In this document: positions 1 to 10,609 of the stretch, one piece after another
Layout of the letters: each line of letters opens with the position of its first letter
How positions within the stretch are numbered: the first letter of the stretch is position 1
Virus genome (UHGV): UHGV-0223590
DNA length: 10,609 nt
Origin: a virus
Reading direction: 5' to 3' (one strand)
Notes under the pieces: model-generated
The model's database searches: none
What the model saw: only the letters and a program-made list of their open reading frames with translations
Told to the model about the DNA's origin: nothing
Position numbers and translations under genes: made by a program

Positions 1-119
1 GGTGGGTGTTAGGGGCACCCACCAGCCATCTGCTCATGCGTTGGGTTCACAAGCAAACCTCAGGCCCACTGCTTTGCGCAAAAGCAGAATGAGCCTATCA
101 GAGACAGGCTTAATGATCC

Positions 120-1169
120 ATGCTTAATACTGTAAAAATATCCAGTTGTGAGTTAATCAACGCCGACTGCCTGGAATTTATCCGGTCGTTACCCGAAAAT
201 TCTGTTGACCTGATAGTCACGGACCCGCCGTACTTTAAAGTGAAGCCTGAGGGCTGGGATAACCAGTGGAAGGGCGACGATGATTACCTGAAGTGGCTGG
301 ACCAGTGTCTGGCGCAGTTCTGGCGGGTGCTGAAACCTGCCGGAAGTCTTTACCTGTTCTGTGGTCATCGCCTGGCATCTGATATCGAAATCATGATGCG
401 TGAACGCTTCAGTGTGCTGAACCATATTATCTGGGCGAAGCCGTCCGGACGCTGGAACGGATGCAACAAGGAAAGCCTGCGGGCGTATTTCCCCGCCACA
501 GAGCGCATTCTGTTCGCGGAACATTATCAGGGGCCGTATCGTCCGAAAGATGCCGGGTATGCGGCGAAGGGCAGTGCACTGAAACAGCATGTGATGGCCC
601 CGCTGATTTCTTACTTTCGTGATGCGCGCGCGGCCCTGGGGATAACGGCAAAACAGATTGCAGATGCCACAGGAAAGAAAAACATGGTGTCGCACTGGTT
701 CAGTGCCAGTCAGTGGCAGCTACCGAACGAAAGCGATTATCTGAAATTACAGTCGCTGTTTGCCCGGGTGGCAGAAGAGAAACATCAGCGCGGTGAACTG
801 GAAAAGCCCCACCACCAGCTGGTGGATACGTATACGTCACTGAACCGGCAGTATGTGGAGCTGCAGAGTGAATATAAGCATCTGCGGCGGTATTTTGGTG
901 TGACGGCGCAGGTGCCGTACACGGATGTGTGGACACATAAACCGGTGCAGTTCTATCCCGGGAAACATCCGTGCGAAAAACCGGCAGAAATGCTGCAGCA
1001 GATAATCAGCGCAAGCAGTCGTCCGGGTGACCTGGTTGCAGATTTTTTTATGGGCTCAGGTTCAACGGTAAAAGCGGCACTGGCGCTCGGGCGTCGTGCG
1101 ATTGGCGTTGAACTGGAGACCGGACGTTTTGAGCAGACAGTCAGGGAAGTTCAGGATTTAATCGTTTGA
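120..1169 (+). CDS. DNA methyltransferase, beta-class (N6-adenine or N4-cytosine), phage-type orphan
   Basis: 349-aa ORF. DPPY (motif IV) near the N-terminus in ...LIVTDPPYF..., and F-x-G-S-G-S-T (motif I, AdoMet binding) near the C-terminus in ...DFFMGSGSTV.... The IV-before-I order is typical of beta-class amino-MTases. The ORF starts right after an in-frame stop at 114-116, so 120 is the only ATG start. Confidence 0.85.
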   Translation: MLNTVKISSCELINADCLEFIRSLPENSVDLIVTDPPYFKVKPEGWDNQWKGDDDYLKWLDQCLAQFWRVLKPAGSLYLFCGHRLASDIEIMMRERFSVLNHIIWAKPSGRWNGCNKESLRAYFPATERILFAEHYQGPYRPKDAGYAAKGSALKQHVMAPLISYFRDARAALGITAKQIADATGKKNMVSHWFSASQWQLPNESDYLKLQSLFARVAEEKHQRGELEKPHHQLVDTYTSLNRQYVELQSEYKHLRRYFGVTAQVPYTDVWTHKPVQFYPGKHPCEKPAEMLQQIISASSRPGDLVADFFMGSGSTVKAALALGRRAIGVELETGRFEQTVREVQDLIV

Positions 1170-1218
1170 AACGGATGAGATTGCAGAATTAATTACGCAC
1201 CATTATTATTCTGCTCCC

Positions 1219-1294
1219 GGCCCTTTAGCTCAGTGGTGAGAGCGAGCGACTCATAATCGCCAGGTCGCTGGTTCAAATCCAGCAAGGGCCACCA
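1219..1294 (+). tRNA. ileZ: tRNA-Ile2 (anticodon CAU, ileX/ileZ-like; formally Met by anticodon alone)
   Basis: 76 nt, GGCCCTTTAGCTCAGTGGTGAGAGCGAGCGACTCATAATCGCCAGGTCGCTGGTTCAAATCCAGCAAGGGCCACCA. Cloverleaf folds by hand: 7-bp acceptor stem GGCCCTT/AAGGGCC, anticodon loop ctCATaa, T-loop TTCAAAT, encoded CCA. Closely resembles E. coli ileX as I recall it. Gene symbol is by analogy to the ileZ-argN-argO array of Stx phages. Confidence 0.85.
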
Positions 1295-1303
1295 TATCAC
1301 ATA

Positions 1304-1380
1304 CCACCATTAGCTCATCGGGATAGAGCGCCAGCCTTCGAAGCTGGTTGCGCGGGGTTCGAGTTCTCGATGGCGGTCCA
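1304..1380 (+). tRNA. tRNA-Arg (anticodon UCG)
   Basis: 77 nt. D-stem GCTC/GAGC, perfect anticodon stem CCAGC/GCTGG, anticodon loop ctTCGaa, T-loop TTCGAGT, encoded CCA. The acceptor stem has one A-C mismatch and the T-stem has G-U pairs; the 5' boundary is +/- 2 nt. Confidence 0.7.
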
Positions 1381-1394
1381 TTTATCGGTATTCT

Positions 1395-1468
1395 GCGTTG
1401 TTAGCTCAGCCGGACAGAGCAATTGCCTTCTAAGCAGCTGTGGTTGCACTCCTGTTGTTTCTGGTGGT
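1395..1468 (+). pseudogene. Degenerate tRNA-Arg(UCU)-like sequence (argU-like 5' half, broken T-arm and acceptor 3' strand)
   Basis: GCGTTGTTAGCTCAGCCGGACAGAGCAATTGCCTTCTAAGCAGC gives acceptor 5' strand, D-arm and an anticodon arm with loop ctTCTaa (anticodon UCU). Downstream there is no T-stem (GGTTGCACTCCTG instead of GGTTCGAATCC with pairing flanks) and no complement to GCGTTGT. The 3' end is approximate. Confidence 0.4.
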
Positions 1469-1614
1469 GATGGTGGACTTCAGCAGCCGGATAATGTCGG
1501 TGCTGTCTGATGGTGTTTTGGTGGCGGGTGTGTGGTTGTTGCTTTCCCGTTGCTGAAAAAGAAAGCATCAGGCGATTAGCAGGGTATCAGTTACCCGTTG
1601 AAATTTTTAAATAC

Positions 1615-1834
1615 CTCACAATTCCACAGCTTGATGATTGTCTGGCTGCCGGAGAATTTGTTAAAAATTACATCGCATGGTGAATCCCCCTCAGCGGCGG
1701 GGCATCTGGCAAAGTGTATGATCCAGAGAACATGCAAATTCAGTAGACAGGCTGAATTTACCGGGAGTCCCCTGGCACCATGCGACAGACAGAAATTAGG
1801 CTATACTTCAGCCCCTCTCCGGAGGGGCTTTTCT
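1615..1834 (+). repeat. Repeat copy A (~220 bp), ends in terminator-like hairpin
   Basis: Aligns by eye with 2083-2301 over its length. Shared blocks include TTGTCTGGC, GTTAAAAA(T)T, GCATGGTGAATCCCCCT, a CCCCT-N6-AGGGG hairpin, CACCGGGAG, GGCACCATGC and the terminal AGCCCCTCTCCGGAGGGGCT. Confidence 0.6.
1810..1834 (+). terminator. Putative intrinsic terminator (8-bp GC-rich stem, 4-nt loop, TTTCT tail)
   Basis: AGCCCCTC/TCCG/GAGGGGCT is a perfect hairpin followed by TTTCT on the + strand. There is no U-run on the opposite strand. Confidence 0.5.
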
Positions 1835-2082
1835 GTGCAGGATGTGTCACAGTTTCCTGAATTCTGAGTACTGTCCTGTTACTCAGGGTGCTATATTTTC
1901 TGACGTGATGAAAGTCTGCCGGAAGGCGGAACGTATCGGAAATGACCCAGTAGAGAAAACGTTGACTCAGATACCGATGCTGAGTTACCGGGAAACCGGC
2001 ATCACATGACCGCTATCCTTCCAGGCTCGCTCCGGCGGGCCTTTTTACTGCAGAAAACAGTTTTCCCGTAAAATGCCACGTT

Positions 2083-2301
2083 GCTCATAATTCAGGCTGG
2101 CGATTATTGTCTGGCCGGCGGGAAGTTTGTTAAAAAATTTCGCATGGTGAATCCCCCTGTGCGGAGGGGTAATCAGCGAGTAGGTATATGGGATAATCGC
2201 GGATTCAGGTGCTGGTACTGAATTCACCGGGAGGCACCCGGCACCATGCAATGGCACATAGCGCCACTCTCCAGCCCCTCTCCGGAGGGGCTGTTTATAT
2301 T
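2083..2301 (+). repeat. Repeat copy B (~220 bp), diverged copy of 1615-1834
   Basis: Same block order as copy A, with substitutions and small indels. The terminal hairpin is identical (AGCCCCTC-TCCG-GAGGGGCT). Confidence 0.6.
2273..2301 (+). terminator. Putative intrinsic terminator (same hairpin, weaker GTTTATATT tail)
   Basis: Identical 8-bp stem and loop to 1810-1829, followed by GTTTATATT. Confidence 0.35.
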
Positions 2302-2907
2302 GATTTTGTCAGATGTGAGTAAACTCCTTATGGACTTTGTTGTTTTAGCCCATAAGGACATATTTGCAGAGTGCAACGGTTATTAAAGCATTCATTCAAT
2401 ACGTTATCTGTATTTGTAGGGCATTCCTGGCTGTTTTTGATTAAATTCCAGAATGTTTTATTGAATGGTACTACGTTGTAAATGGTTACAGGTAGCACTT
2501 TGTTATTGAGCATGATGCCTGTGTGAGTCAGTGTAAATATACTTTCAGGAGGTAAGAAAGCATCCGATTGATACCAGATTATTAATTTTATTTTACTCCA
2601 TATGACTGAAAAAGATATTCCGCATGATGGCTGGATAACTGTATCAATCACAATCCACTTCATTTAGTTTCCTTGTTTATGCCTTGCTGGTGATGTTCTG
2701 AAAAGTATAAATGATATTTTTGAATTAAACCATAGAGCAGAATTATTTTTCTGATGTTGTTTATTGTTTATTTAAATGCAGGGTGGTTTATATCTCGTCT
2801 TGTAGTTTATCCATGCATATCTGCTTGATGATGAGGTTTTTATTTAAGGTATGGTTTTGTGTTTTTTCTGTATTACATGTCAGGTATTTTAAAGAATCAT
2901 TTTTCAG

Positions 2908-4401
2908 ATGGTGGAAAGAACCATGGCATTTAAACACTATGATGTTGTCAGGGCGGCGTCGCCGTCAGATCTTGCGGAAAAGCTGACACATAAACTGAAA
3001 GAGGGCTGGCAGCCGTTTGGTAGTCCGGTGGCCATAACCCCTTATACCCTGATGCAGGCGATTGCAGCAGAAGGTGATGTGGTCGTCAGTGGTGCAACTG
3101 AGCCGGAGTGGTACTACGTCATCGTACTGGCCGGGCAATCCAATGCCATGGCTTACGGTGAAGGGCTTCCGCTTCCGGATTCATACGATGCGCCCCATCC
3201 GCGCATTAAGCAACTGGCCCGTCGTAACACAGTGACTCCCGGTGGTGAAGTATGCGTATTTAACGACATCATTCCTGCTGACCATTGTCTGCATGATGTT
3301 CAGGATATGAGTACGATTAATCATCCCCGGGCTGACCTGAGCAAAGGGCAGTACGGCTGTGTCGGACAGGGCTTACATATTGCCAAAAAACTGCTTCCGT
3401 ATATCCCTAATAACGCGGGGATCCTGCTGGTACCATGCTGTCGTGGTGGTTCGGCATTCACCCAGGGCACGGAGGGGACATTCAGCGAGTCCACGGGGGC
3501 CAGTCAGGATTCGGCTCGCTGGGGAGTGGGTAAGCCGTTATATCAGGATCTGCTTTTCCGCACGAAGGCAGCATTGCAGAAAAACCCGAAAAACGTTTTG
3601 CTGGCGATATGCTGGATGCAGGGGGAATTCGATATGACGAATGCCAGTTACGCCCAGCAGCCAGCAGCATTTCTTGCAATGGTACAGCAGTTCCGTGCTG
3701 ACCTTGCCGGGCTGGCGGCGCAGTGTCACGGTGGAAGTCCGGCATCAGTCCCCTGGATTTGTGGCGACACGACATACGCGTGGAAACAAGAACACGGTAC
3801 GCAATATGAAGTGGTATATGGTGCATATAAAGGTAAAGAATCCCAGCAGATTTATTTTGTTCCCTTTATGACCGATGGTAGCGGAGTTAATACACCGACA
3901 AACAACCCGTCAGAAGATCCTGATATTGCCGGGTCTGGTTATTACGGTTCGGCATCCCGAACGAACAAAAACTGGGTATCATCAAATCGCCCGACGCATT
4001 TCAGCTCATGGGCGCGTCGTGGCATTATTCCCGATCGTATGGCAACTGCTATTCTGAACGTAGCCGGTCGCACCTTAGCCTTCATTAGTGGTAAGGCACC
4101 GGAAATCAAACCCTCGCCCGGCGGCGACACGCCATCGGGGCCGTCTGAAGATGCATCCGTACGCACAATCTCCCTGTTGCCGACAGCCGGAGATGCTGCT
4201 GCGCAGGGCTGGAGCATTAAGAATGGCGGAATTCAGTTGTCAGATGGTGTATTTAAGATCACCAAGCAGAGCAATAAAACCTGGTCCCTGATGCATCCGG
4301 TGGATGACGCAGTCTCCCTGCTGACACGGGGTGGCAGACTGAGCTGTAAGTTTCGACTGTCAGGCGCACTGACCAACAACCAGTTCGGTCTGGGAATTTA
4401 G
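2908..4401 (+). CDS. nanS-p: Prophage-encoded NanS-p-like sialate O-acetylesterase (DUF1737-like N-terminal domain + SGNH/DUF303 esterase)
   Basis: 497-aa ORF. The N-terminus (MAFKHYDVVRAASPSDLAEKLTHKLKEGWQPFGSP...) matches the small DUF1737-type domain typical of these phage proteins. An SGNH block-I-like GQSNAMAYGEG follows. Sitting downstream of the late-region tRNA array is the canonical nanS-p position in Stx/lambdoid prophages. An alternative start at ATG 2923 (MAFKHYDV) is plausible. Confidence 0.8.
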   Translation: MVERTMAFKHYDVVRAASPSDLAEKLTHKLKEGWQPFGSPVAITPYTLMQAIAAEGDVVVSGATEPEWYYVIVLAGQSNAMAYGEGLPLPDSYDAPHPRIKQLARRNTVTPGGEVCVFNDIIPADHCLHDVQDMSTINHPRADLSKGQYGCVGQGLHIAKKLLPYIPNNAGILLVPCCRGGSAFTQGTEGTFSESTGASQDSARWGVGKPLYQDLLFRTKAALQKNPKNVLLAICWMQGEFDMTNASYAQQPAAFLAMVQQFRADLAGLAAQCHGGSPASVPWICGDTTYAWKQEHGTQYEVVYGAYKGKESQQIYFVPFMTDGSGVNTPTNNPSEDPDIAGSGYYGSASRTNKNWVSSNRPTHFSSWARRGIIPDRMATAILNVAGRTLAFISGKAPEIKPSPGGDTPSGPSEDASVRTISLLPTAGDAAAQGWSIKNGGIQLSDGVFKITKQSNKTWSLMHPVDDAVSLLTRGGRLSCKFRLSGALTNNQFGLGI

Positions 4402-4610
4402 TGCTGGCGAGCCTTGACGGGCTGATCTCCTATGCAGCAAAGGTTCATCTCAAAGTAAGACGAACGCTATGACAAACCAAGATTCTATAGACCTATCTGA
4501 TCTTCGTGGAATGGTCAGTTTTCCAGACAAAAGGTAATCACCATAGTCGTATGGCTATGAATCTTGTTGCTGCAGATAAGCATTTTGTGATTGAAGTGGT
4601 CAAATCTCTC

Positions 4611-4639
4611 AAATGCAGTAAAATGCAGTGCGCTATAAT
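4611..4639 (+). promoter_or_regulatory. Putative sigma70 promoter for the 206-aa gene (perfect -10 TATAAT at 4634-4639, weak -35), overlapped by a tandem 9-bp direct repeat
   Basis: TATAAT lies 28 nt upstream of ATG 4668, with SD AAGGAG at 4655-4660. AAATGCAGT occurs at 4611-4619 and again at 4621-4629. Confidence 0.4.
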
Positions 4640-4667
4640 TCAATAACGGAGGGAGTAAGGAGAAGTC

Positions 4668-5288
4668 ATGAAAGATCAAGATGTTAGGTTCGCGGTGCAT
4701 CATAAGCTTTTGAAAGAATCGCATTTAGATCCAGACTGCCTTGTGGTCGATGAATTTTCCATATCCCTTGGCGCCAGTAGAGCAGACATTGCTGTAATAA
4801 ATGGTGTTATACACGGGTACGAGCTCAAAAGTGAATATGACTCTTTGGAGCGTTTGCCTCTTCAAATCAAGCATTATTCTTCTGTAATGGACAAGGTTAC
4901 TCTTGTCGTAGCTGAGAAACACCTTGAGGGAGCATTAAAGTTAATTCCAGGTTGGTGGGGCGTTAAAACGGTTTCTGTTGGGCCAAAAGGCGCCATTCTT
5001 ATAAAGCACATGCGTGGAGAAAAGCTTAATCGAAACCATGACACATTGATGCTCGCTCAATTGCTTTGGAAAGATGAATGTATCGACGTACTTGAACGAT
5101 GGGGCTATTCCAAAGGAATCAAAAGCAAGCCCCGATTTGAGTTATGGAATATTATTGCGGAAAATATTCCAATAGCGAATCTCAGGCTTGAAGTCAGAAC
5201 AGCCTTAAAGAAACGCGTAGGCTGGAAAGTTAAGGCTTGGCAGGCTGAGTCTGCGCCAACCAATAAAGCTGTCTCACGACTAACGTAA
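4668..5288 (+). CDS. Hypothetical protein, 206 aa, with PD-(D/E)xK-like motif arrangement (putative nuclease)
   Basis: ORF with strong SD (AAGGAG, 7-nt spacer) and an upstream TATAAT. Carries ...VVDEFSI...SRADIAVING..HGYELKSEYD..., i.e. E29, D39, E52-x-K54 spaced like a restriction-endonuclease-fold core. Lies in AT-rich DNA unlike the flanking phage genes. Confidence 0.65.
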   Translation: MKDQDVRFAVHHKLLKESHLDPDCLVVDEFSISLGASRADIAVINGVIHGYELKSEYDSLERLPLQIKHYSSVMDKVTLVVAEKHLEGALKLIPGWWGVKTVSVGPKGAILIKHMRGEKLNRNHDTLMLAQLLWKDECIDVLERWGYSKGIKSKPRFELWNIIAENIPIANLRLEVRTALKKRVGWKVKAWQAESAPTNKAVSRLT

Positions 5289-6297
5289 TATGGTGCGTAT
5301 GTGCAACTTTACGCCATTCTTTAGAGCCGCCAGATTTGTTAGCGCCTAATGATCTTTGGTAAATGTAATCATCCCCCCAACTAAATTTGGAGCCAAAGAC
5401 TTGATACTCTGGCGAACTAACAAGGGTAGTACATAAGTTTTTAGTTTGGCCCCATCCATTTCCTTTAACTGCGGTACCTTTTACAAAGATCCATGAGGTA
5501 TCGTTCGAATATCTCACTGAGACATACTGAGACATGAAGCGTGGGTCTACGCTCGTAATGGTAGAGCTAGCGGTGGGATAATCACTAAAACTTGGCGTTC
5601 TTCCATTGCTAAAATTCTGTACTACGTACATCCAAAGATCGTATTCATGGCGCGGAATATGATGAACTTGATGTTGCGGTATCCCTGCCTGTGATGCCGG
5701 GTATGCGGTTGAAGATAAAATCAAGTTTCTCCACGGAGCTTGGCCTGATAATGTGTTGACCATGCTTAATGCTTGTTGTTTTAAACTATCAGTTGCGTTT
5801 TGAATATCTCCAAAATCAATGATTACATCAATTAAACTAGGATGAATATTTAAGTGGTTAACCAGACTTGTGAATTGGTGCCATGTCTGGGGGGTGATAG
5901 ATATAGCGAGCCCATTGATTAAGTTGCGTTGAACAGCATGTATATAGTTTGTTGAATATGCGGGAGAAACAACAGGGATAATTTCCTTACCATTTACTCT
6001 AGCATCTTGGATACACATATCTAGAGGATGATGGCGGCTCGAACCATGTTTATCTAAATATTTAACATCCAGCAAAACAGGACGATTGGCTTTCCAGGAT
6101 GCCGCAAGGTTAATACCGAAGTCAGATAAGTAAGAACTCAAACTCTTCTTGTAGCATTCGTTTTCATAATCCCAGTCTATGTCTGGAATGGTAATGATCG
6201 GAGTAAAACCAGAGAGCGTAGTTTGATCTAAAAGCATCAGAGATTCATATTCAGCAGGCTTCCATTTCAGCTGTGGATAATATTGATGTTGACTCAT
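5230..6297 (-). CDS. Hypothetical protein, 355 aa, partner of the 206-aa gene (convergent, 59-bp 3' overlap)
   Basis: Long minus-strand ORF with a strong SD (AAGGAG, 6 nt before ATG, seen as CTCCTT at 6303-6308 on +). AT-rich like its partner. No catalytic motif I can assign by eye. Confidence 0.65.
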   Translation of the reverse strand: MSQHQYYPQLKWKPAEYESLMLLDQTTLSGFTPIITIPDIDWDYENECYKKSLSSYLSDFGINLAASWKANRPVLLDVKYLDKHGSSRHHPLDMCIQDARVNGKEIIPVVSPAYSTNYIHAVQRNLINGLAISITPQTWHQFTSLVNHLNIHPSLIDVIIDFGDIQNATDSLKQQALSMVNTLSGQAPWRNLILSSTAYPASQAGIPQHQVHHIPRHEYDLWMYVVQNFSNGRTPSFSDYPTASSTITSVDPRFMSQYVSVRYSNDTSWIFVKGTAVKGNGWGQTKNLCTTLVSSPEYQVFGSKFSWGDDYIYQRSLGANKSGGSKEWRKVAHTHHITLVVRQLYWLAQTQPAKP

Positions 6298-6327
6298 TAA
6301 AACTCCTTAAAATCTTTACTTATCCTA

Positions 6328-6356
6328 AGTATAGTGTTATGGCGTAACGCCAATTG
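6328..6356 (-). promoter_or_regulatory. Putative promoter/operator for the 355-aa gene (-10 TATACT; inverted repeat TGGCG-N3-CGCCA in spacer/-35 region)
   Basis: On the minus strand TATACT lies about 30 nt upstream of the start codon. The palindrome TGGCGTAACGCCA (6340-6352) sits immediately upstream of it. Confidence 0.3.
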
Positions 6357-6520
6357 TTTTTATACACTTGAAAACATTGGGAAAAGTTGAGCTATATCTA
6401 AATTTACAAAATTGGATGTTATAGAAATCGAGGTTTCAACTAGGCATGGAACTGCAAAATTTTTAATGCCTGCACGCGAAAGTCGTTGGCGGGTCCTTTC
6501 CGGTGATCCAGATCGTTACG

Positions 6521-6532
6521 GGGCGGCGACCT
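6521..6532 (+). other. cos: cosN (lambda-type cohesive end site, GGGCGGCGACCT)
   Basis: Exact match to the lambda 12-nt cohesive end. The preceding CTTTCCGGTGATCC...GTTACG resembles the lambda right end, and the following CTCGCGG(T)TTTTC(A)CTATTTATGAAAATTTT matches the lambda left end almost base for base. Distance to the Nu1 start (187 nt) is close to lambda's. Confidence 0.9.
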
Positions 6533-6707
6533 CGCGGTTTTTCACTATTTATGAAAATTTTTCAGGGAAAATCGTGTCGGTACTTCTCGAATATAACTTT
6601 TTGTTTTTTTTAATATTGCATTCATAAATGTCCGACATGAAAGTGTCCGAAAATGCCTTTTTTTGGCGTTTTCATGTCGGGCCTTGTATTTGATAATGAG
6701 TTGTTCT
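6533..6707 (+). promoter_or_regulatory. cosB-like region (terminase small-subunit binding sites) between cosN and Nu1
   Basis: Repeated motif related to CGACATGAAA in both orientations: TGTCCGACATGAAAG at 6629-6643, TGTCCGAAAATG at 6645-6656, and the inverted TTTTCATGTCGGG at 6669-6681. Position corresponds to the lambda R3-I1-R2-R1 region. Confidence 0.6.
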
Positions 6708-7256
6708 ATGAAGGTTAATAAAAAGAGGCTTGCCGAAATTTTCAACGTGGATCCGCGAACGATTGAACGCTGGCAGTCTCAGGGGCTCCCTTGCGTCTCC
6801 AAAGGCAGTAAGGGCATTGAATCTGTATTTGATACTGCCATGGCAATTCAGTGGTATGCGCAGAGGGAAACTGATATCGAAAACGAAAAGCTCCGCAAAG
6901 AACTGGCCGATTTGCGTGCGGCAGCGGAGTCAGATTTACAACCCGGCACCATTGACTATGAACGCTACCGGCTCACAAAAGCGCAGGCAGATGCGCAGGA
7001 ACTGAAAAATGCCCGTGAAGACGGAGTGGTGCTGGAAACTGAACTATTTACCTTCATTCTGCAACGTGTGGCACAGGAGATTTCGGGGATACTTGTGCGT
7101 GTGCCGTTGACATTACAGCGTAAATATCCGGACATTTCACCATCACACCTTGATGTGGTGAAAACTGAAATCGCGAAAGCCTCCAATGTTGCAGCTAAGG
7201 CCGGTGAAAACGTGGGCGGGTGGATCGATGATTTCAGACGCACAGAAGGCAGCTAA
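6708..7256 (+). CDS. nu1: Terminase small subunit (lambda gpNu1 homologue)
   Basis: [28 protein letters not shown]...[48 protein letters not shown]... is colinear with lambda Nu1 (MEVNKKQLADIFGASIRTIQNWQEQGMP...). Start moved to the internal ATG 6708 (MKVNKK) rather than the track's 6663, matching the lambda N-terminus and the distance from cosN. Confidence 0.9.
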
Positions 7257-9156
7257 TGCAGCCGGTGCGATAGCTACAGGGCTTTTATCTCTCATTATTC
7301 CTGTTCCACTGACGACAGTTCAGTGGGCCAATAAACATTATTACCTTCCTAAAGAGTCGTCTTATACCCCGGGGCGGTGGGAAACACTGCCGTTTCAGGT
7401 TGGCATCATGAACTGTATGGGCAACGATTTGATTCGCACTGTTAACCTGATTAAATCTGCCCGTGTTGGTTATACAAAGATGTTGCTGGGAGTGGAGGCT
7501 TATTTTATTGAGCATAAATCACGCAACAGCCTTCTTTTTCAGCCCACGGACTCAGCTGCTGAAGATTTTATGAAATCTCATGTTGAGCCAACGATAAGGG
7601 ATGTTCCTGCATTGCTGGAGCTGGCTCCATGGTTCGGAAGAAAACACCGCGATAATACGCTCACCCTGAAGCGTTTTTCCTCCGGTGTGGGTTTCTGGTG
7701 TCTGGGGGGAGCGGCAGCAAAAAACTACCGTGAAAAATCCGTGGATGTGGTTTGTTATGACGAGCTTTCCTCGTTCGAACCGGATGTTGAAAAAGAGGGT
7801 TCGCCAACCCTGCTGGGGGATAAACGTATTGAGGGCTCTGTATGGCCAAAATCCATTCGCGGCTCGACGCCTAAAATCAAAGGCTCCTGCCAGATCGAAA
7901 AAGCCGCTAACGAGTCGGCACATTTCATGCGTTTTTATGTGCCCTGTCCGCACTGTGGGGAGGAGCAGTATCTGAAATTTGGCGATGATGCCTCGCCTTT
8001 CGGTCTTAAGTGGGAGAAGAATAAGCCAGAAAGTGTTTTCTACCTTTGTGAGCATCATGGCTGTGTGATCCATCAGTCTGAGCTTGACCAGAGTAACGGG
8101 CGGTGGATCTGTGAAAACACGGGCATGTGGACTCGTGACGGTCTGACATTTTTCAGCGCCGCGGATAATGAAATTCCGCCGCCGCGCTCCATCACATTCC
8201 ATATCTGGACGGCGTACAGTCCGTTCACCACCTGGGTACAGATTGTCTATGACTGGCTGGATGCACTGAAAGATCCCAACGGCCTGAAAACCTTTGTGAA
8301 CACCACGCTGGGCGAGACCTGGGAAGAGGCCGTGGGCGAAAAACTCGATCACCAGGTGCTGATGGATAAGGTTGTGCGTTACACGGCTGCGGTGCCTTCC
8401 CGGGTGGTTTATCTGACGGCGGGCATTGACTCGCAGCGAAACCGTTTTGAGATGTATGTCTGGGGATGGGCTCCGGGAGAGGAAGCCTTTCTGGTGGATA
8501 AAATCATCATTATGGGGCGTCCCGATGAGGAAGAGACGCTGTTACGTGTGGATGTGGCGATCAACAAAAAATACCGCCATGCAGACGGAACCGAAATGAC
8601 CATTTCCCGTGTCTGCTGGGACACCGGGGGGATCGATGGCGAAATTGTCTATCAGAGGTCAAAAAAACACGGTGTTTTCCGGGTGCTGCCGGTAAAAGGT
8701 GCATCTGTTTATGGCAAGCCGGTGATCACCATGCCAAAAACCCGCAATCAGCGGGGCGTGTATCTGTGCGAAGTGGGGACGGACACCGCAAAAGAAATTC
8801 TCTATGCCCGTATGAAAGCCGATCCCACGCCTGCGGATGAAGCCACGTCGTATGCCATCCGTTTTCCTGATGATCCGGAGATTTTTTCGCAGACAGAGGC
8901 GCAGCAACTGGTGGCGGAAGAGCTTGTGGAGAAGTGGGAAAAAGGAAAGATGCGTCTGCTGTGGGATAACAAAAAGCGGCGTAACGAAGCGCTGGACTGC
9001 CTGGTGTATGCCTACGCGGCATTACGTGTGTCCGTGCAACGCTGGCAGCTTGATCTGGCTGTACTGGCAAAATCCCGGGAAGAAGAGACGACCCGGCCAA
9101 CCCTTAAAGAACTGGCAGCGAAGCTGTCCGGAGGAGTGAATGGTTACAGTCGCTGA
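7228..9156 (+). CDS. A: Terminase large subunit (lambda gpA homologue)
   Basis: Long stretches match lambda gpA as I recall it: [145 protein letters not shown]. Start set at ATG 7228 (MISDAQ...), overlapping the Nu1 3' end by 29 nt as in lambda; the track's ATG 7186 lies in the same frame but inside Nu1. Confidence 0.9.
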
Positions 9157-9346
9157 ACTGCAGGCGCTGCGTCAGGCGCGCCTTGATTTATTAACCGGTA
9201 AACGGGTGGTGTCTGTCCAGAAAGATGGTCGCAGAATTGAATATACGGCAGCTTCTCTGGATGAGCTTAACCGGGCGATCAATGATGCGGAGTCGGTACT
9301 GGGGACAACCCGCCGTCGCCGTCGTCCGCTGGGAGTGAGGTTATGA
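9140..9346 (+). CDS. W: Head-tail joining protein (lambda gpW homologue)
   Basis: 68 aa; LTGKRVVSVQKDGRRIEYTAASLDEL...RRRRRP matches lambda gpW ([26 protein letters not shown]...). GGAGG SD upstream; overlaps the A stop. Confidence 0.9.
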   Translation: MVTVAELQALRQARLDLLTGKRVVSVQKDGRRIEYTAASLDELNRAINDAESVLGTTRRRRRPLGVRL

Positions 9347-9915
9347 AACGAACGCCTGTCCTGATTGATGTGAACGGCGTTCCGCTTCGGGAGAGCCTCA
9401 GCTACAACGGTGGCGGTGCAGGATTTGGCGGGCAAATGGCAGAGTGGTTGCCACCCTCGCAGAGTGCCGATGCGGCCCTGCTGCCCGCGTTGCGTCTGGG
9501 GAATGCCCGTGCAGATGATCTGGTGCGCAATAACGGAATAGCGGCCAATGCGGTGGCCCTGCATAAGGATCACATTGTCGGGCATATGTTTCTGATTAGC
9601 TACCGTCCGAACTGGCGCTGGCTGGGGATGCGGGAGACCGCGGCAAAAAGTTTTGTCGATGAGGTGGAGGCGGCCTGGTCAGAATACGCAGAAGGGATGT
9701 TTGGTGAGATCGACGTGGAAGGGAAACGCACGTTTACGGAATTTATCCGTGAAGGTGTGGGCGTTCATGCGTTTAACGGCGAAATCTTTGTGCAGCCGGT
9801 CTGGGATACGGAGAGTACGCAACTGTTTCGTACGCGTTTTAAAGCCGTGAGTCCGAAACGGGTGGACACGCCAGGACACGGTAGCTGCCAGTATCAATAT
9901 CAAGCCGGGCCATGA
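9343..9915 (+). pseudogene. B: Portal protein gene B, truncated (N-terminal ~180 codons only)
   Basis: MKRTPVLIDVNGVPLRESLSYNGGGAGFGGQMAEWLPP...[15 protein letters not shown] is near-identical to the lambda gpB N-terminus. Homology stops at about 9882 and the ORF ends 11 codons later ([10 protein letters not shown]). Lambda gpB is over 500 aa. Confidence 0.85.
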
Positions 9916-10609
9916 TTATTATTTTTATATCCGCAGTGTGAATACAGTCGGCAAATCGGCATTCGTGGAGGCTGTCGGTCGGGCGAGCGATGATGCGGAA
10001 GGTTACCTGGATTTTTTCAAAGGAGAAATCGGGAAAACACATCTGGCCCAGGAGCTGTGGACGCAGATTGATAACGGTCAGCTTGCGCCGGACCTGGCTG
10101 AAATCAGGACGTCCATTACGAATGTCAGCAATGAAATCACGCAGACCGTCAATAAAAAACTGGAAAATCAGAGTGCGGCAATCCAGCAGATACAGAAAGT
10201 TCAGGTTGATACAAATAATAACCTGAACAGCATGTGGGCCGTGAAACTGCAGCAGATGCAGGACGGACGCCTTTATATTGCGGGTATCGGTGCCGGTATT
10301 GAGAATACGCCAGCAGGAATGCAGAGTCAGGTGCTGCTGGCGGCAGACAGGATTGCGATGATTAATCCTGCGAATGGCAACACAAAGCCGATGTTTGTTG
10401 GTCAGGGCGATCAGATATTTATGAATGAAGTGTTCCTGAAATATCTGACGGCTCCCACCATTACCAGCGGCGGTAATCCTCCGGCATTTTCCCTGACACC
10501 GGACGGGCGGCTGACGGCGAAAAATGCCGATATCAGCGGTAACGTGAATGCGAACTCCGGGACGCTCAACAACGTCACGATTAACGAGAACTGTCGGGTT
10601 CTGGGAAAA
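9884..10609 (+). pseudogene. J: Tail fibre/host-specificity protein J, 5'-truncated internal fragment (no start codon; runs off window end)
   Basis: A frame different from B translates to [47 protein letters not shown]...[76 protein letters not shown]..., colinear with the distal part of lambda gpJ. Open to the window end. An in-frame stop at 9848-9850 lies just upstream and there is no ATG near the junction. Confidence 0.85.

What the first reader, a model, noticed from the sequence alone, without database searches (positions are those of the whole stretch)
4402..6520. No holin/endolysin/spanin genes between nanS-p and cos
In lambda and Stx phages the late operon runs Q, (stx), (nanS-p), S, R, Rz/Rz1, then cos and terminase. 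Here the interval between the nanS-p stop and cosN holds only the two-gene cassette. Neither protein looks like a lysozyme, transglycosylase or amidase, and there is no small holin ORF with transmembrane character. The element therefore seems unable to lyse its host, unless lysis genes sit elsewhere.
Basis: partly seen in the sequence, partly recalled or inferred. Interest (0 to 1): 0.55.

Follow-up and report, generated by a model that had tools for sequence, protein, structure and literature searches.

The report
Lysis genes deleted from decayed prophage
This E. coli prophage has no host-lysis genes because one 2.3-kb deletion removed them, and a second 15-kb deletion removed the head and tail genes, so this is ordinary prophage decay that left a likely anti-phage gene pair intact next to cos.

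Summary
Between the nanS-p stop (4399-4401) and cosN (GGGCGGCGACCT, 6521-6532) there are only two real genes, and nothing resembles a holin, endolysin or spanin.

The cause is a simple deletion, not a replacement. Intact E. coli relatives read nanS-p (618 aa), P21-type pinholin, ydfR-like gene, SAR endolysin, Rz/Rz1, then the same two-gene cassette, then cos. The cassette follows lysozyme-Rz in 124 of 127 complete genomes that carry it. The window has lost about 2.3 kb (2,251-2,576 bp depending on the reference) at a 3-bp TTA microhomology. That junction creates the TAG that ends a truncated NanS-p.

A second deletion of about 15 kb at 9882/9883 fuses portal codon 180 to the 3' part of J, removing all other head and tail genes. 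The element is therefore a grounded prophage remnant. Both junctions recur in many independent E. coli draft assemblies, so they are not artefacts.

The cassette encodes a PD-(D/E)XK nuclease-like protein (sce7726 / P4 cII family) and a TIM-barrel protein (P4 beta / PD-lambda-2C family). It is a mobile convergent pair and probably an anti-phage module. It is not muralytic.

Two limits remain. The left arm of the element (left of cro) was not recovered. The cassette's function is inferred, not shown.

The parts
2908..4401 (+). Truncated nanS-p (DUF1737 + SASA sialate O-acetylesterase). It is 497 aa from the first ATG, or 492 aa as called in assemblies (start 2923). The C-terminal 125 residues of the 618-aa protein (DUF6645 region) are missing.
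   Evidence: Pfam DUF1737 1.3e-15 and SASA 7.2e-13. tblastn of the intact 618-aa protein aligns only residues 1-493. Intact relatives have 617-618 aa with an added PF20350.
4398..4400 (.). Deletion junction D1. A 3-bp TTA microhomology joins nanS-p codon 493 to a point 146 bp downstream of the Rz stop. It creates the TAG stop at 4399-4401.
   Evidence: blastn of the window against L001 and six other cassette-bearing relatives gives the same endpoints, 4400|4398. Flanking sequences were read directly. An identical junction is present in 14 independent loci.
4668..5288 (+). sce7726 / P4 cII-family protein, a predicted PD-(D/E)XK nuclease (206 aa). A sigma-70-like promoter match lies at 4597-4624.
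5230..6297 (-). Beta-family protein (P4 beta / PD-lambda-2C relative), a TIM-barrel fold (355 aa). It is convergent with the sce7726 gene and overlaps its 3' end by 59 bp.
6491..6532 (+). Right edge of the variable Rz-cos slot (6491), then cosN at 6521-6532 (GGGCGGCGACCT).
   Evidence: Homology to cassette-less relatives resumes at window 6491. Homology to phage 21 and PhiR57_1 resumes at 6483, and phage 21 coordinate 1 aligns to 6521. Sequence read directly.
6708..7256 (+). Terminase small subunit Nu1 (182 aa), intact.
   Evidence: Pfam Phage_Nu1 2.6e-81. Same length as in intact relatives.
7228..9156 (+). Terminase large subunit gpA (642 aa), intact.
   Evidence: Pfam GpA_ATPase 9.1e-57 and GpA_nuclease 5.1e-71. 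Same length as in relatives.
9140..9346 (+). gpW head-tail joining protein (68 aa), intact.
   Evidence: Annotated as gpW (PF02831) in identical loci. 97.6-98% identity to phage 21.
9343..9915 (+). Portal gene remnant: 180 portal codons plus 10 codons read from J-derived DNA. Deletion junction D2 lies at 9882/9883, and the 3' part of J follows to the window end.
   Evidence: Window 4398-9883 aligns to L001 19997-25482, and window 9882-10594 aligns to L001 40526-41238 inside gpJ, so 15,043 bp are missing. The fusion protein is found in 135 collection blocks and 55 contigs, annotated as E. coli. The junction 30-mer is present in 14 loci.

Best explanation
The interval lacks lysis genes because one illegitimate-recombination deletion removed them. 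The deletion is about 2.3 kb and is joined at a 3-bp TTA microhomology. It removed the last 125 codons of nanS-p, the phage-21-type pinholin, a ydfR-like gene, the SAR endolysin and the Rz/Rz1 spanins, plus 146 bp beyond Rz.

A second deletion of about 15 kb joined portal codon 180 to the 3' part of J and removed the head and tail genes. What remains is a grounded lambdoid prophage (Qin-like early genes, phage-21-like cos and terminase). It can neither lyse the cell by the canonical route nor build virions.

The two-gene cassette was already present in the Rz-cos moron slot of the intact ancestor, and both deletions left it intact. It encodes a PD-(D/E)XK nuclease-like protein and a TIM-barrel P4-beta-like protein.

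I infer that the cassette is an anti-phage (abortive-infection or toxin-antitoxin-like) module, with the nuclease as effector and the beta-like protein as regulator or sensor.

Shown here: the deletions and their endpoints, the absence of lysis homologues, the family and fold assignments, and the cassette's position in intact relatives. Inferred: the cassette's function, and selection for losing lysis genes while keeping the cassette.
For: - Collinearity with two gaps against the intact prophage of E. coli DA33133. The D1 endpoints are the same against six further relatives.
- The deleted segment in relatives encodes Phage_holin_2_1, DUF1327, Phage_lysozyme and Phage_lysis proteins. The lysozyme has an N-terminal hydrophobic SAR-like segment, and Rz1 is embedded in Rz.
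- The junction sequence shows TTA at both parental sites and makes the TAG stop.
- 124 of 127 complete E. coli genomes with the cassette have lysozyme-Rz directly upstream of it.
- The junctions are real. D1 is identical in 14 independent loci from NCBI isolates, Logan and ENA. The D2 fusion protein is in 135 collection blocks and is annotated as E. coli.
- No lysis homologues occur from cro to the chromosomal flank yciE/yciF.
- Cassette identity.
- The same convergent pair occurs as a unit elsewhere: next to an integrase gene in Vibrio, and between the endolysin gene and a DUF2570/LysC gene in a Yersinia prophage.
- Literature: P4 gop-beta-cII protects against lambda and P1 and sits next to P4 cos (PMC9122126). 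[quoted passage not shown]
- Independent deletions of holin and endolysin, each running from within nanS-p into Rz, occur in two other cassette-bearing prophages, L017 and L027.
Against: - The left arm of this exact element (left of cro) was not recovered, so a relocated or non-canonical lysis gene there is not excluded. Relatives carry ydfD, which causes lysis when overexpressed (PMC8835842).
- No complete RefSeq E. coli genome carries either junction, so the whole element has only been seen in draft assemblies.
- The cassette's anti-phage role is untested. It lacks gop, and it lacks the HigB/Xre-peptidase partners of PD-lambda-2. Its genes are convergent, unlike the P4 operon.
- A TIM barrel is also the fold of some glycosidases, so fold alone does not exclude a hydrolase.
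Confidence: 0.9

Rival explanations
1. Module exchange: the two-gene cassette was recombined in to replace the lysis cassette, as an alternative module at the same position.
For: The Rz-cos region is a variable slot. Some relatives carry DUF3950/DUF1398 genes there instead of the cassette, and the cassette has lower GC (about 0.38-0.43) than its flanks.
Against: In 124 of 127 complete genomes the cassette lies downstream of an intact lysozyme-Rz rather than replacing it. The window is 99.2-99.8% identical to those prophages on both sides of one clean gap with 3-bp microhomology, and the left breakpoint is inside nanS-p.
Confidence: 0.03
2. Lysis functions are supplied from elsewhere: from the unrecovered left arm (for example ydfD, the Qin lytic peptide) or in trans from other prophages of the host. 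The element could then still cause or exploit lysis.
For: Close relatives carry ydfD (DUF1482) and dicB in the left arm. YdfD overexpression lyses E. coli (PMC8835842). E. coli genomes commonly carry several lambdoid prophages: lysozyme/Rz-like sequence is found in 5,070 of 5,426 genomes, with a median of 2 places per genome.
Against: YdfD is not part of the late-operon lysis programme. No lysis homologue is found from cro to the right end. With the head and tail genes gone, lysis would release no particles of this element's own making.
Confidence: 0.06
3. Assembly artefact: the window is a chimeric contig that collapsed repeated lambdoid sequence and skipped the lysis genes.
For: nanS-p and late-region sequence are multi-copy in E. 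coli: 3,407 places in 1,296 genomes for the 301-bp probe. Neither junction is in any complete RefSeq genome.
Against: The identical D1 junction is present in 14 loci from different samples and assemblers, including isolate contigs of 142-263 kb. Both junctions lie at 2-3 bp microhomologies, not at repeats.
Confidence: 0.01
4. One cassette protein is itself the lytic enzyme. For example, the TIM-barrel Beta protein could be a glycosidase acting on the cell wall.
Against: The hits are generic: the top one is a de novo designed barrel, and all are at 12% identity or less. The protein has no hydrophobic signal or SAR segment (maximum 19-residue hydropathy 1.05). It belongs to the P4 beta / PD-lambda-2C family. 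It coexists with a complete lysis cassette in intact prophages, and no holin is present.
Confidence: 0.02

Closest known systems
Cryptic (grounded) lambdoid prophages of E. coli, such as Qin, Rac and DLP12 of K-12
   Same: It is a chromosomally fixed lambdoid element, collinear with intact phages, that lost essential morphogenesis genes by internal deletions while keeping accessory genes. Its early region is Qin-like in relatives (dicB, ydfA-D, rem, hokD).
   Different: By my recollection, not tested here, Qin and DLP12 keep their holin, lysozyme and Rz genes. Here exactly that block is deleted, while cos, Nu1, gpA and gpW are kept.
Phage 21 / Stx-phage late region (Q, tRNAs, [stx], nanS-p, S21 pinholin, SAR endolysin R21, Rz/Rz1, cos)
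   Same: The gene order up to nanS-p and from cos onward is the same, with 97.5-98% DNA identity to phage 21 from cos through the portal gene. Intact relatives carry a 71-aa class II holin and an endolysin with an N-terminal hydrophobic anchor. The canonical Q-to-S order is described in PMC10462455.
   Different: There is no stx; an iraM-like gene lies on the opposite strand in that region. The lysis block is deleted, and an extra two-gene cassette sits between Rz and cos.
Gop-beta-cII anti-phage system of satellite P4
   Same: The cassette has homologues of beta (Pfam Beta_protein 8e-56; PADLOC beta 3.5e-10) and cII (PADLOC cll 4e-31). In both elements the genes lie directly next to cos (PMC9122126).
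   Different: No gop homologue is present. There are two genes rather than three, and they are convergent and overlapping rather than one operon. Anti-phage activity is untested.
PD-lambda-2 defence system (Vassallo et al. 2022)
   Same: The Beta protein matches the PD-Lambda-2_C model best (4.4e-32). PD-lambda-2C is needed for defence against lambda-vir (PMC9519451).
   Different: The HigB-like A and Xre-peptidase B components are absent. The partner here is a PD-(D/E)XK nuclease-like protein.

Membership tests
Canonical lambdoid lysis cassette (holin-endolysin-spanin) | A small membrane protein (holin or pinholin) encoded just downstream of nanS-p. | tested here: not met
   tblastn with the 71-aa holin of the intact relative gives no hit at E<1. 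No credible transmembrane ORF lies in 4402-6520. The small ORFs have no Pfam hits.
Canonical lambdoid lysis cassette (holin-endolysin-spanin) | A muralytic enzyme (lysozyme, transglycosylase or amidase). | tested here: not met
   There is no tblastn hit to the SAR lysozyme. The cassette proteins match Beta_protein and sce7726/cII families only. Their folds are a generic TIM barrel and a PD-(D/E)XK nuclease.
Canonical lambdoid lysis cassette (holin-endolysin-spanin) | Spanins Rz and embedded Rz1. | tested here: not met
   Rz and Rz1 give no tblastn hit in the window, L021 or L003. Both are found in L014, L017 and L027 as positive controls.
Defective (cryptic) lambdoid prophage | Collinear with intact lambdoid prophages but lacking genes essential for virion production. 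| tested here: met
   There are two clean gaps relative to DA33133: 2,276 bp (lysis genes) and 15,043 bp (portal to J).
Defective (cryptic) lambdoid prophage | Resident in a bacterial chromosome and inherited in a lineage. | tested here: met
   The same element lies in E. coli isolate contigs of 142-263 kb, with the host genes yciE/yciF, yciG and trpA to the right. The fusion protein is on 55 contigs.
Defective (cryptic) lambdoid prophage | Failure to lyse or to yield plaque-forming particles on induction. | not testable with these tools
   This needs mitomycin C or UV induction of a junction-bearing isolate.
Gop-beta-cII system (P4) | A beta homologue. | tested here: met
   Pfam PF14350 8.2e-56 over the full length. 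PADLOC beta 3.5e-10.
Gop-beta-cII system (P4) | A cII homologue. | tested here: met
   PADLOC cll 4.3e-31. Precomputed Pfam PF26915 Phage_P4_cII in identical loci.
Gop-beta-cII system (P4) | A gop (toxin) homologue in the same operon. | tested here: not met
   There is no third gene. The small ORFs of the interval have no PADLOC hit at E<=1. The two genes are convergent.
Gop-beta-cII system (P4) | Protection against phage infection. | not testable with these tools
   This needs plaque assays with the cloned cassette.
PD-lambda-2 | Three components: HigB-like A, Xre-peptidase B and beta-like C. | tested here: not met
   Only the C-like protein is present. Neither A nor B was found among the other ORFs of 42 aa or more in and around the interval.

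The most novel reading that the evidence does not exclude
The convergent beta-like/cII-like pair may be an autonomous two-gene anti-phage system without gop, with a TIM-barrel sensor or regulator controlling a PD-(D/E)XK nuclease effector. It moves as a unit between prophage lysis-cos regions and integrase-proximal sites in Enterobacterales and Vibrionaceae. Its benefit to the host could be why this prophage remnant is kept after its lysis and structural genes were lost.
Probability: 0.35. Interest if true: 0.45.

Novelty: new member of a known kind. Interest (0 to 1): 0.2.

Why it matters
The practical value is in annotation:
- This locus should be annotated as a defective prophage, not as an intact or inducible one.
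- nanS-p should be marked as a truncated pseudogene.
- The absence of S/R/Rz should not be read as an unusual lysis strategy.

The cassette is of modest biological interest. The sce7726/Beta pair is a widespread, uncharacterised relative of two experimentally validated defence systems (P4 gop-beta-cII and PD-lambda-2). Here it survives two deletions that destroyed the phage. Holin and endolysin were also lost independently in two other prophages that carry the cassette. That pattern fits the known picture of hosts keeping useful prophage genes while lethal ones are lost.

Tried and rejected
- Exact-pattern scan of GTDB representative genomes for the D1 junction: 0 hits. The pattern turned out to include a T>C SNP private to the window and L024, and only one genome per species is held, so this negative says little.
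- megablast of both junctions against 5,426 complete E. coli genomes: no contiguous match. The element was found instead by exact-protein look-ups of the two junction-made proteins.
- Look-up of the window's methylase, to reach the left arm: it returned only other, longer contigs with intact lysis genes. These were useful as references, but the left arm of the deleted element stayed out of reach, because only window-encoded proteins can be looked up.
- PDB sequence search for both cassette proteins: only noise.
- tblastn of Beta against 50,697 deposited phage genomes: best match 30% identity (Rac-SA53), and P4 was not retrieved. No isolated phage in that collection carries this cassette.
- Literature searches for sce7725/sce7726 and for the Beta_protein family: only incidental mentions.
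- The consensus scan did not flag the hairpin plus T-run that I read 40 bp after the Rz stop in L001, so I make no claim about a terminator being lost.
- Considered and rejected: module replacement, assembly chimera, and a muralytic cassette protein (see rival explanations).
Full report
WHAT IS IN THE WINDOW

The window is the late region of a lambdoid prophage of E. coli. In order it contains:
- an N6-adenine DNA methylase (120-1169)
- two tRNA genes (1219-1294, 1304-1380)
- an iraM-like gene on the minus strand (2328-2663), in a low-GC stretch
- a DUF1737/SASA esterase gene, nanS-p (2908-4401)
- two convergent genes (4668-5288 on the plus strand, 5230-6297 on the minus strand)
- the terminase genes Nu1 and gpA, then gpW
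- a 190-codon portal ORF

From 6483 to 9883 the DNA is 97.5-98% identical to phage 21. Coordinate 1 of the phage 21 genome aligns to window 6521, where the cohesive-end sequence GGGCGGCGACCT lies.

CHECK OF THE OBSERVATION

I took the holin, YdfR-like protein, lysozyme, Rz and Rz1 of an intact relative and searched them by tblastn against the window. I also searched two overlapping loci, L021 and L003, that cover the same deleted element in an isolate genome from cro to the chromosomal flank. There was no hit at E<1, while the same queries found their targets in control loci.

No ORF of 25 codons or more in the interval is a credible holin. The two highest hydropathy scores belong to an ORF nested antisense inside the sce7726 gene and to one that spans cosN. 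None of the ORFs of 42 codons or more matches Pfam or PADLOC at E<=1.

WHY THE LYSIS GENES ARE ABSENT

The interval 4402-6520 occurs at 99% identity or more in 127 of 5,426 complete E. coli genomes. One of them, strain DA33133, has the following order:
- Q, methylase, tRNAs, iraM
- nanS-p (618 aa)
- class II holin (71 aa)
- YdfR-family gene
- lysozyme
- Rz
- sce7726-family gene and beta-family gene
- Nu1, gpA, gpW, portal, then a full set of head and tail genes through J and lom

By direct reading of the translations, the lysozyme has an N-terminal hydrophobic segment of the signal-anchor-release type, and Rz1 is embedded in Rz. This is the phage-21 style pinholin/SAR-endolysin arrangement, also described for Stx phages in PMC10462455.

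blastn of the window against that prophage gives three collinear blocks:
- window 1-4400 = L001 13317-17720 (99.2%)
- window 4398-9883 = L001 19997-25482 (99.8%)
- window 9882-10594 = L001 40526-41238 (91.6%, inside J)

The window therefore carries two deletions.

Deletion D1 removes 2,276 bp relative to DA33133, or 2,251-2,576 bp relative to other relatives, always with the same endpoints. The lost segment comprises the last 125 codons of nanS-p, the holin, the ydfR-like gene, the lysozyme, Rz/Rz1 and 146 bp beyond the Rz stop. Both parental sites read TTA at the breakpoint. The joint...GGGAATT-TAG-TGCTGG..., creates the TAG that ends the shortened NanS-p.

Deletion D2 removes 15,043 bp. It joins portal codon 180 to the 3' part of J and eliminates the protease, decoration, capsid, head-completion, tail tube, tape-measure and tip genes.

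THE JUNCTIONS ARE REAL

Neither junction is present in the complete RefSeq genomes. Exact look-ups of the two proteins created by the junctions found the element repeatedly, however:
- The truncated NanS-p is on 17 contigs.
- The portal fusion is in 135 collection blocks and on 55 contigs, annotated as E. coli.
- Three isolate loci cover the whole window contiguously at 99.9% identity.
- All 14 loci that span D1 have the identical joint. The window and L024 differ only by one T>C change eight bases further on. That SNP also explains the empty pattern scan.

An assembly artefact is excluded.

THE CASSETTE DOES NOT REPLACE THE LYSIS GENES

A 1.4-kb probe spanning the lysozyme 3' end, Rz and the cassette 5' end is covered 80% or more in 124 genomes, against 127 that hold the cassette. 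So the cassette normally sits downstream of a complete lysis block.

The segment between Rz and about 30 bp left of cosN is a variable slot. Relatives without the cassette carry DUF3950/DUF1398 genes there or other short, unrelated sequence, and homology resumes at window 6491.

WHAT THE CASSETTE IS

The 206-aa protein is an sce7726-family member:
- NCBIfam sce7726_fam 2.3e-54.
- It matches the cII component of P4 gop-beta-cII in PADLOC at 4.3e-31.
- In 44 homologues E29, D40, E52 and K54 are invariant, which is the PD-(D/E)XK pattern.

The 355-aa protein belongs to the P4 beta family:
- It matches Pfam Beta_protein end to end at 8.2e-56.
- PADLOC gives PD-Lambda-2_C 4.4e-32 and P4 beta 3.5e-10.
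- Its model (pLDDT 93.3, pTM 0.92) is a TIM barrel with only generic structural neighbours.

Neither protein has a signal or membrane segment, and there is no gop-like third gene.

The pair travels as a convergent unit. In Vibrio it lies next to an integrase gene. In a Yersinia prophage it lies between the endolysin gene and a DUF2570/LysC gene.

P4 gop-beta-cII protects against lambda and P1 and lies next to P4 cos (PMC9122126). It is triggered by a phage accessory gene (bioRxiv 10.1101/2023.04.06.535777). [quoted passage not shown] I therefore infer, without proof, that this cassette is an anti-phage module with a nuclease effector.

MECHANISM AND CONSEQUENCE

- Shown: two deletions at 2-3 bp microhomologies, typical of illegitimate recombination.
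- Inferred from the sequence: the element cannot carry out holin-endolysin-spanin lysis and cannot assemble particles. It still has Q (seen in L021), cos, Nu1, gpA and gpW.
- Inferred: loss of the lethal lysis block is tolerated or favoured, while accessory genes persist (methylase, tRNAs, iraM-like gene, the cassette, lom).

Consistent with this, two other cassette-bearing prophages lost holin and endolysin through different deletions, each running from within nanS-p into Rz, and each also has deletions of structural genes. These are L017 (NanS-p cut at residue 293) and strain DLI.5a, L027 (cut at residue 507, with Rz1 left).

LIMITS

The sequence left of cro in this exact element was not obtainable. 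Relatives carry dicB and ydfD there, and YdfD causes lysis when overexpressed (PMC8835842). A non-canonical lytic gene may therefore remain, although it is not part of the late lysis programme.

The cassette's function is untested. A TIM-barrel fold does not by itself rule out a hydrolase, although context and family argue against it.

VERDICT

The explanation is ordinary prophage decay by deletion, in a lineage of E. coli. Interest is low. The only moderately interesting element is the uncharacterised two-gene relative of known defence systems that the deletions left intact.

Noticed in passing
window 9343-10609 (junction at 9882/9883): A second deletion of about 15 kb joins portal codon 180 to the 3' part of gpJ and removes all other head and tail genes. 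The downstream J fragment is only 91.6% identical to the J gene of the otherwise 99.8%-identical relative, so the tail-tip end has a different ancestry.
   Followed up: yes
window 2200-2900 (iraM-like gene 2328-2663, minus strand): A low-GC island (0.33-0.41) lies between the tRNAs and nanS-p, where Stx phages carry stx. It holds an anti-adapter IraM homologue (NCBIfam 4.7e-48) on the opposite strand. A PmrD/IraM-family gene also lies near the same cassette in a Yersinia prophage (L030 3859-4143).
   Followed up: partly
window 1219-1380: ARAGORN calls tRNA-Met(CAT) and tRNA-Arg(TCG) just downstream of the methylase. RefSeq annotates the first as tRNA-Ile in relatives, which is the lysidine-modified ileZ type typical of Stx-phage late regions.
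   Followed up: no
window 1633-1832 and 2102-2296: The cross-matches in the blastn against L001 imply a diverged direct duplication of about 200 bp (about 74% identity) in the non-coding stretch between the tRNAs and the iraM-like gene.
   Followed up: no
L017 12325-13652; L027 7674-9394: Two other E. coli prophages with the same cassette lost holin and endolysin through independent deletions. In L017 NanS-p is cut at residue 293 and joined to the start of Rz. In L027 it is cut at residue 507 and only the 3' part of Rz, with Rz1, is left. Both also have truncated terminase and tail genes.
   Followed up: partly
L030/L031 4357-7630 (Yersinia); L028/L029 (Vibrio): The convergent Beta/sce7726 pair is a portable two-gene unit. 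In a Yersinia prophage it lies between the endolysin gene and a DUF2570/LysC gene. In Vibrio it lies directly beside an integrase gene.
   Followed up: partly
window 5230-5288 and 6340-6352: The two cassette genes overlap by 59 bp at their 3' ends. The E. coli sce7726 protein has a C-terminal extension of about 16 residues, modelled with low confidence (pLDDT below 50 for residues 189-206), that most homologues (about 190 aa) lack. A perfect palindrome, TGGCG-TAA-CGCCA, lies 43 bp upstream of the Beta start codon and could be an operator.
   Followed up: no
L013 18717-19553; L027 4545-5657; hit H2: IS elements have inserted in relatives of this prophage: IS1 between the cassette and Nu1, IS421 inside the methylase gene, and IS2 within the cassette region in strain CUVET17-972. 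This is further evidence of ongoing decay in this prophage family.
   Followed up: no
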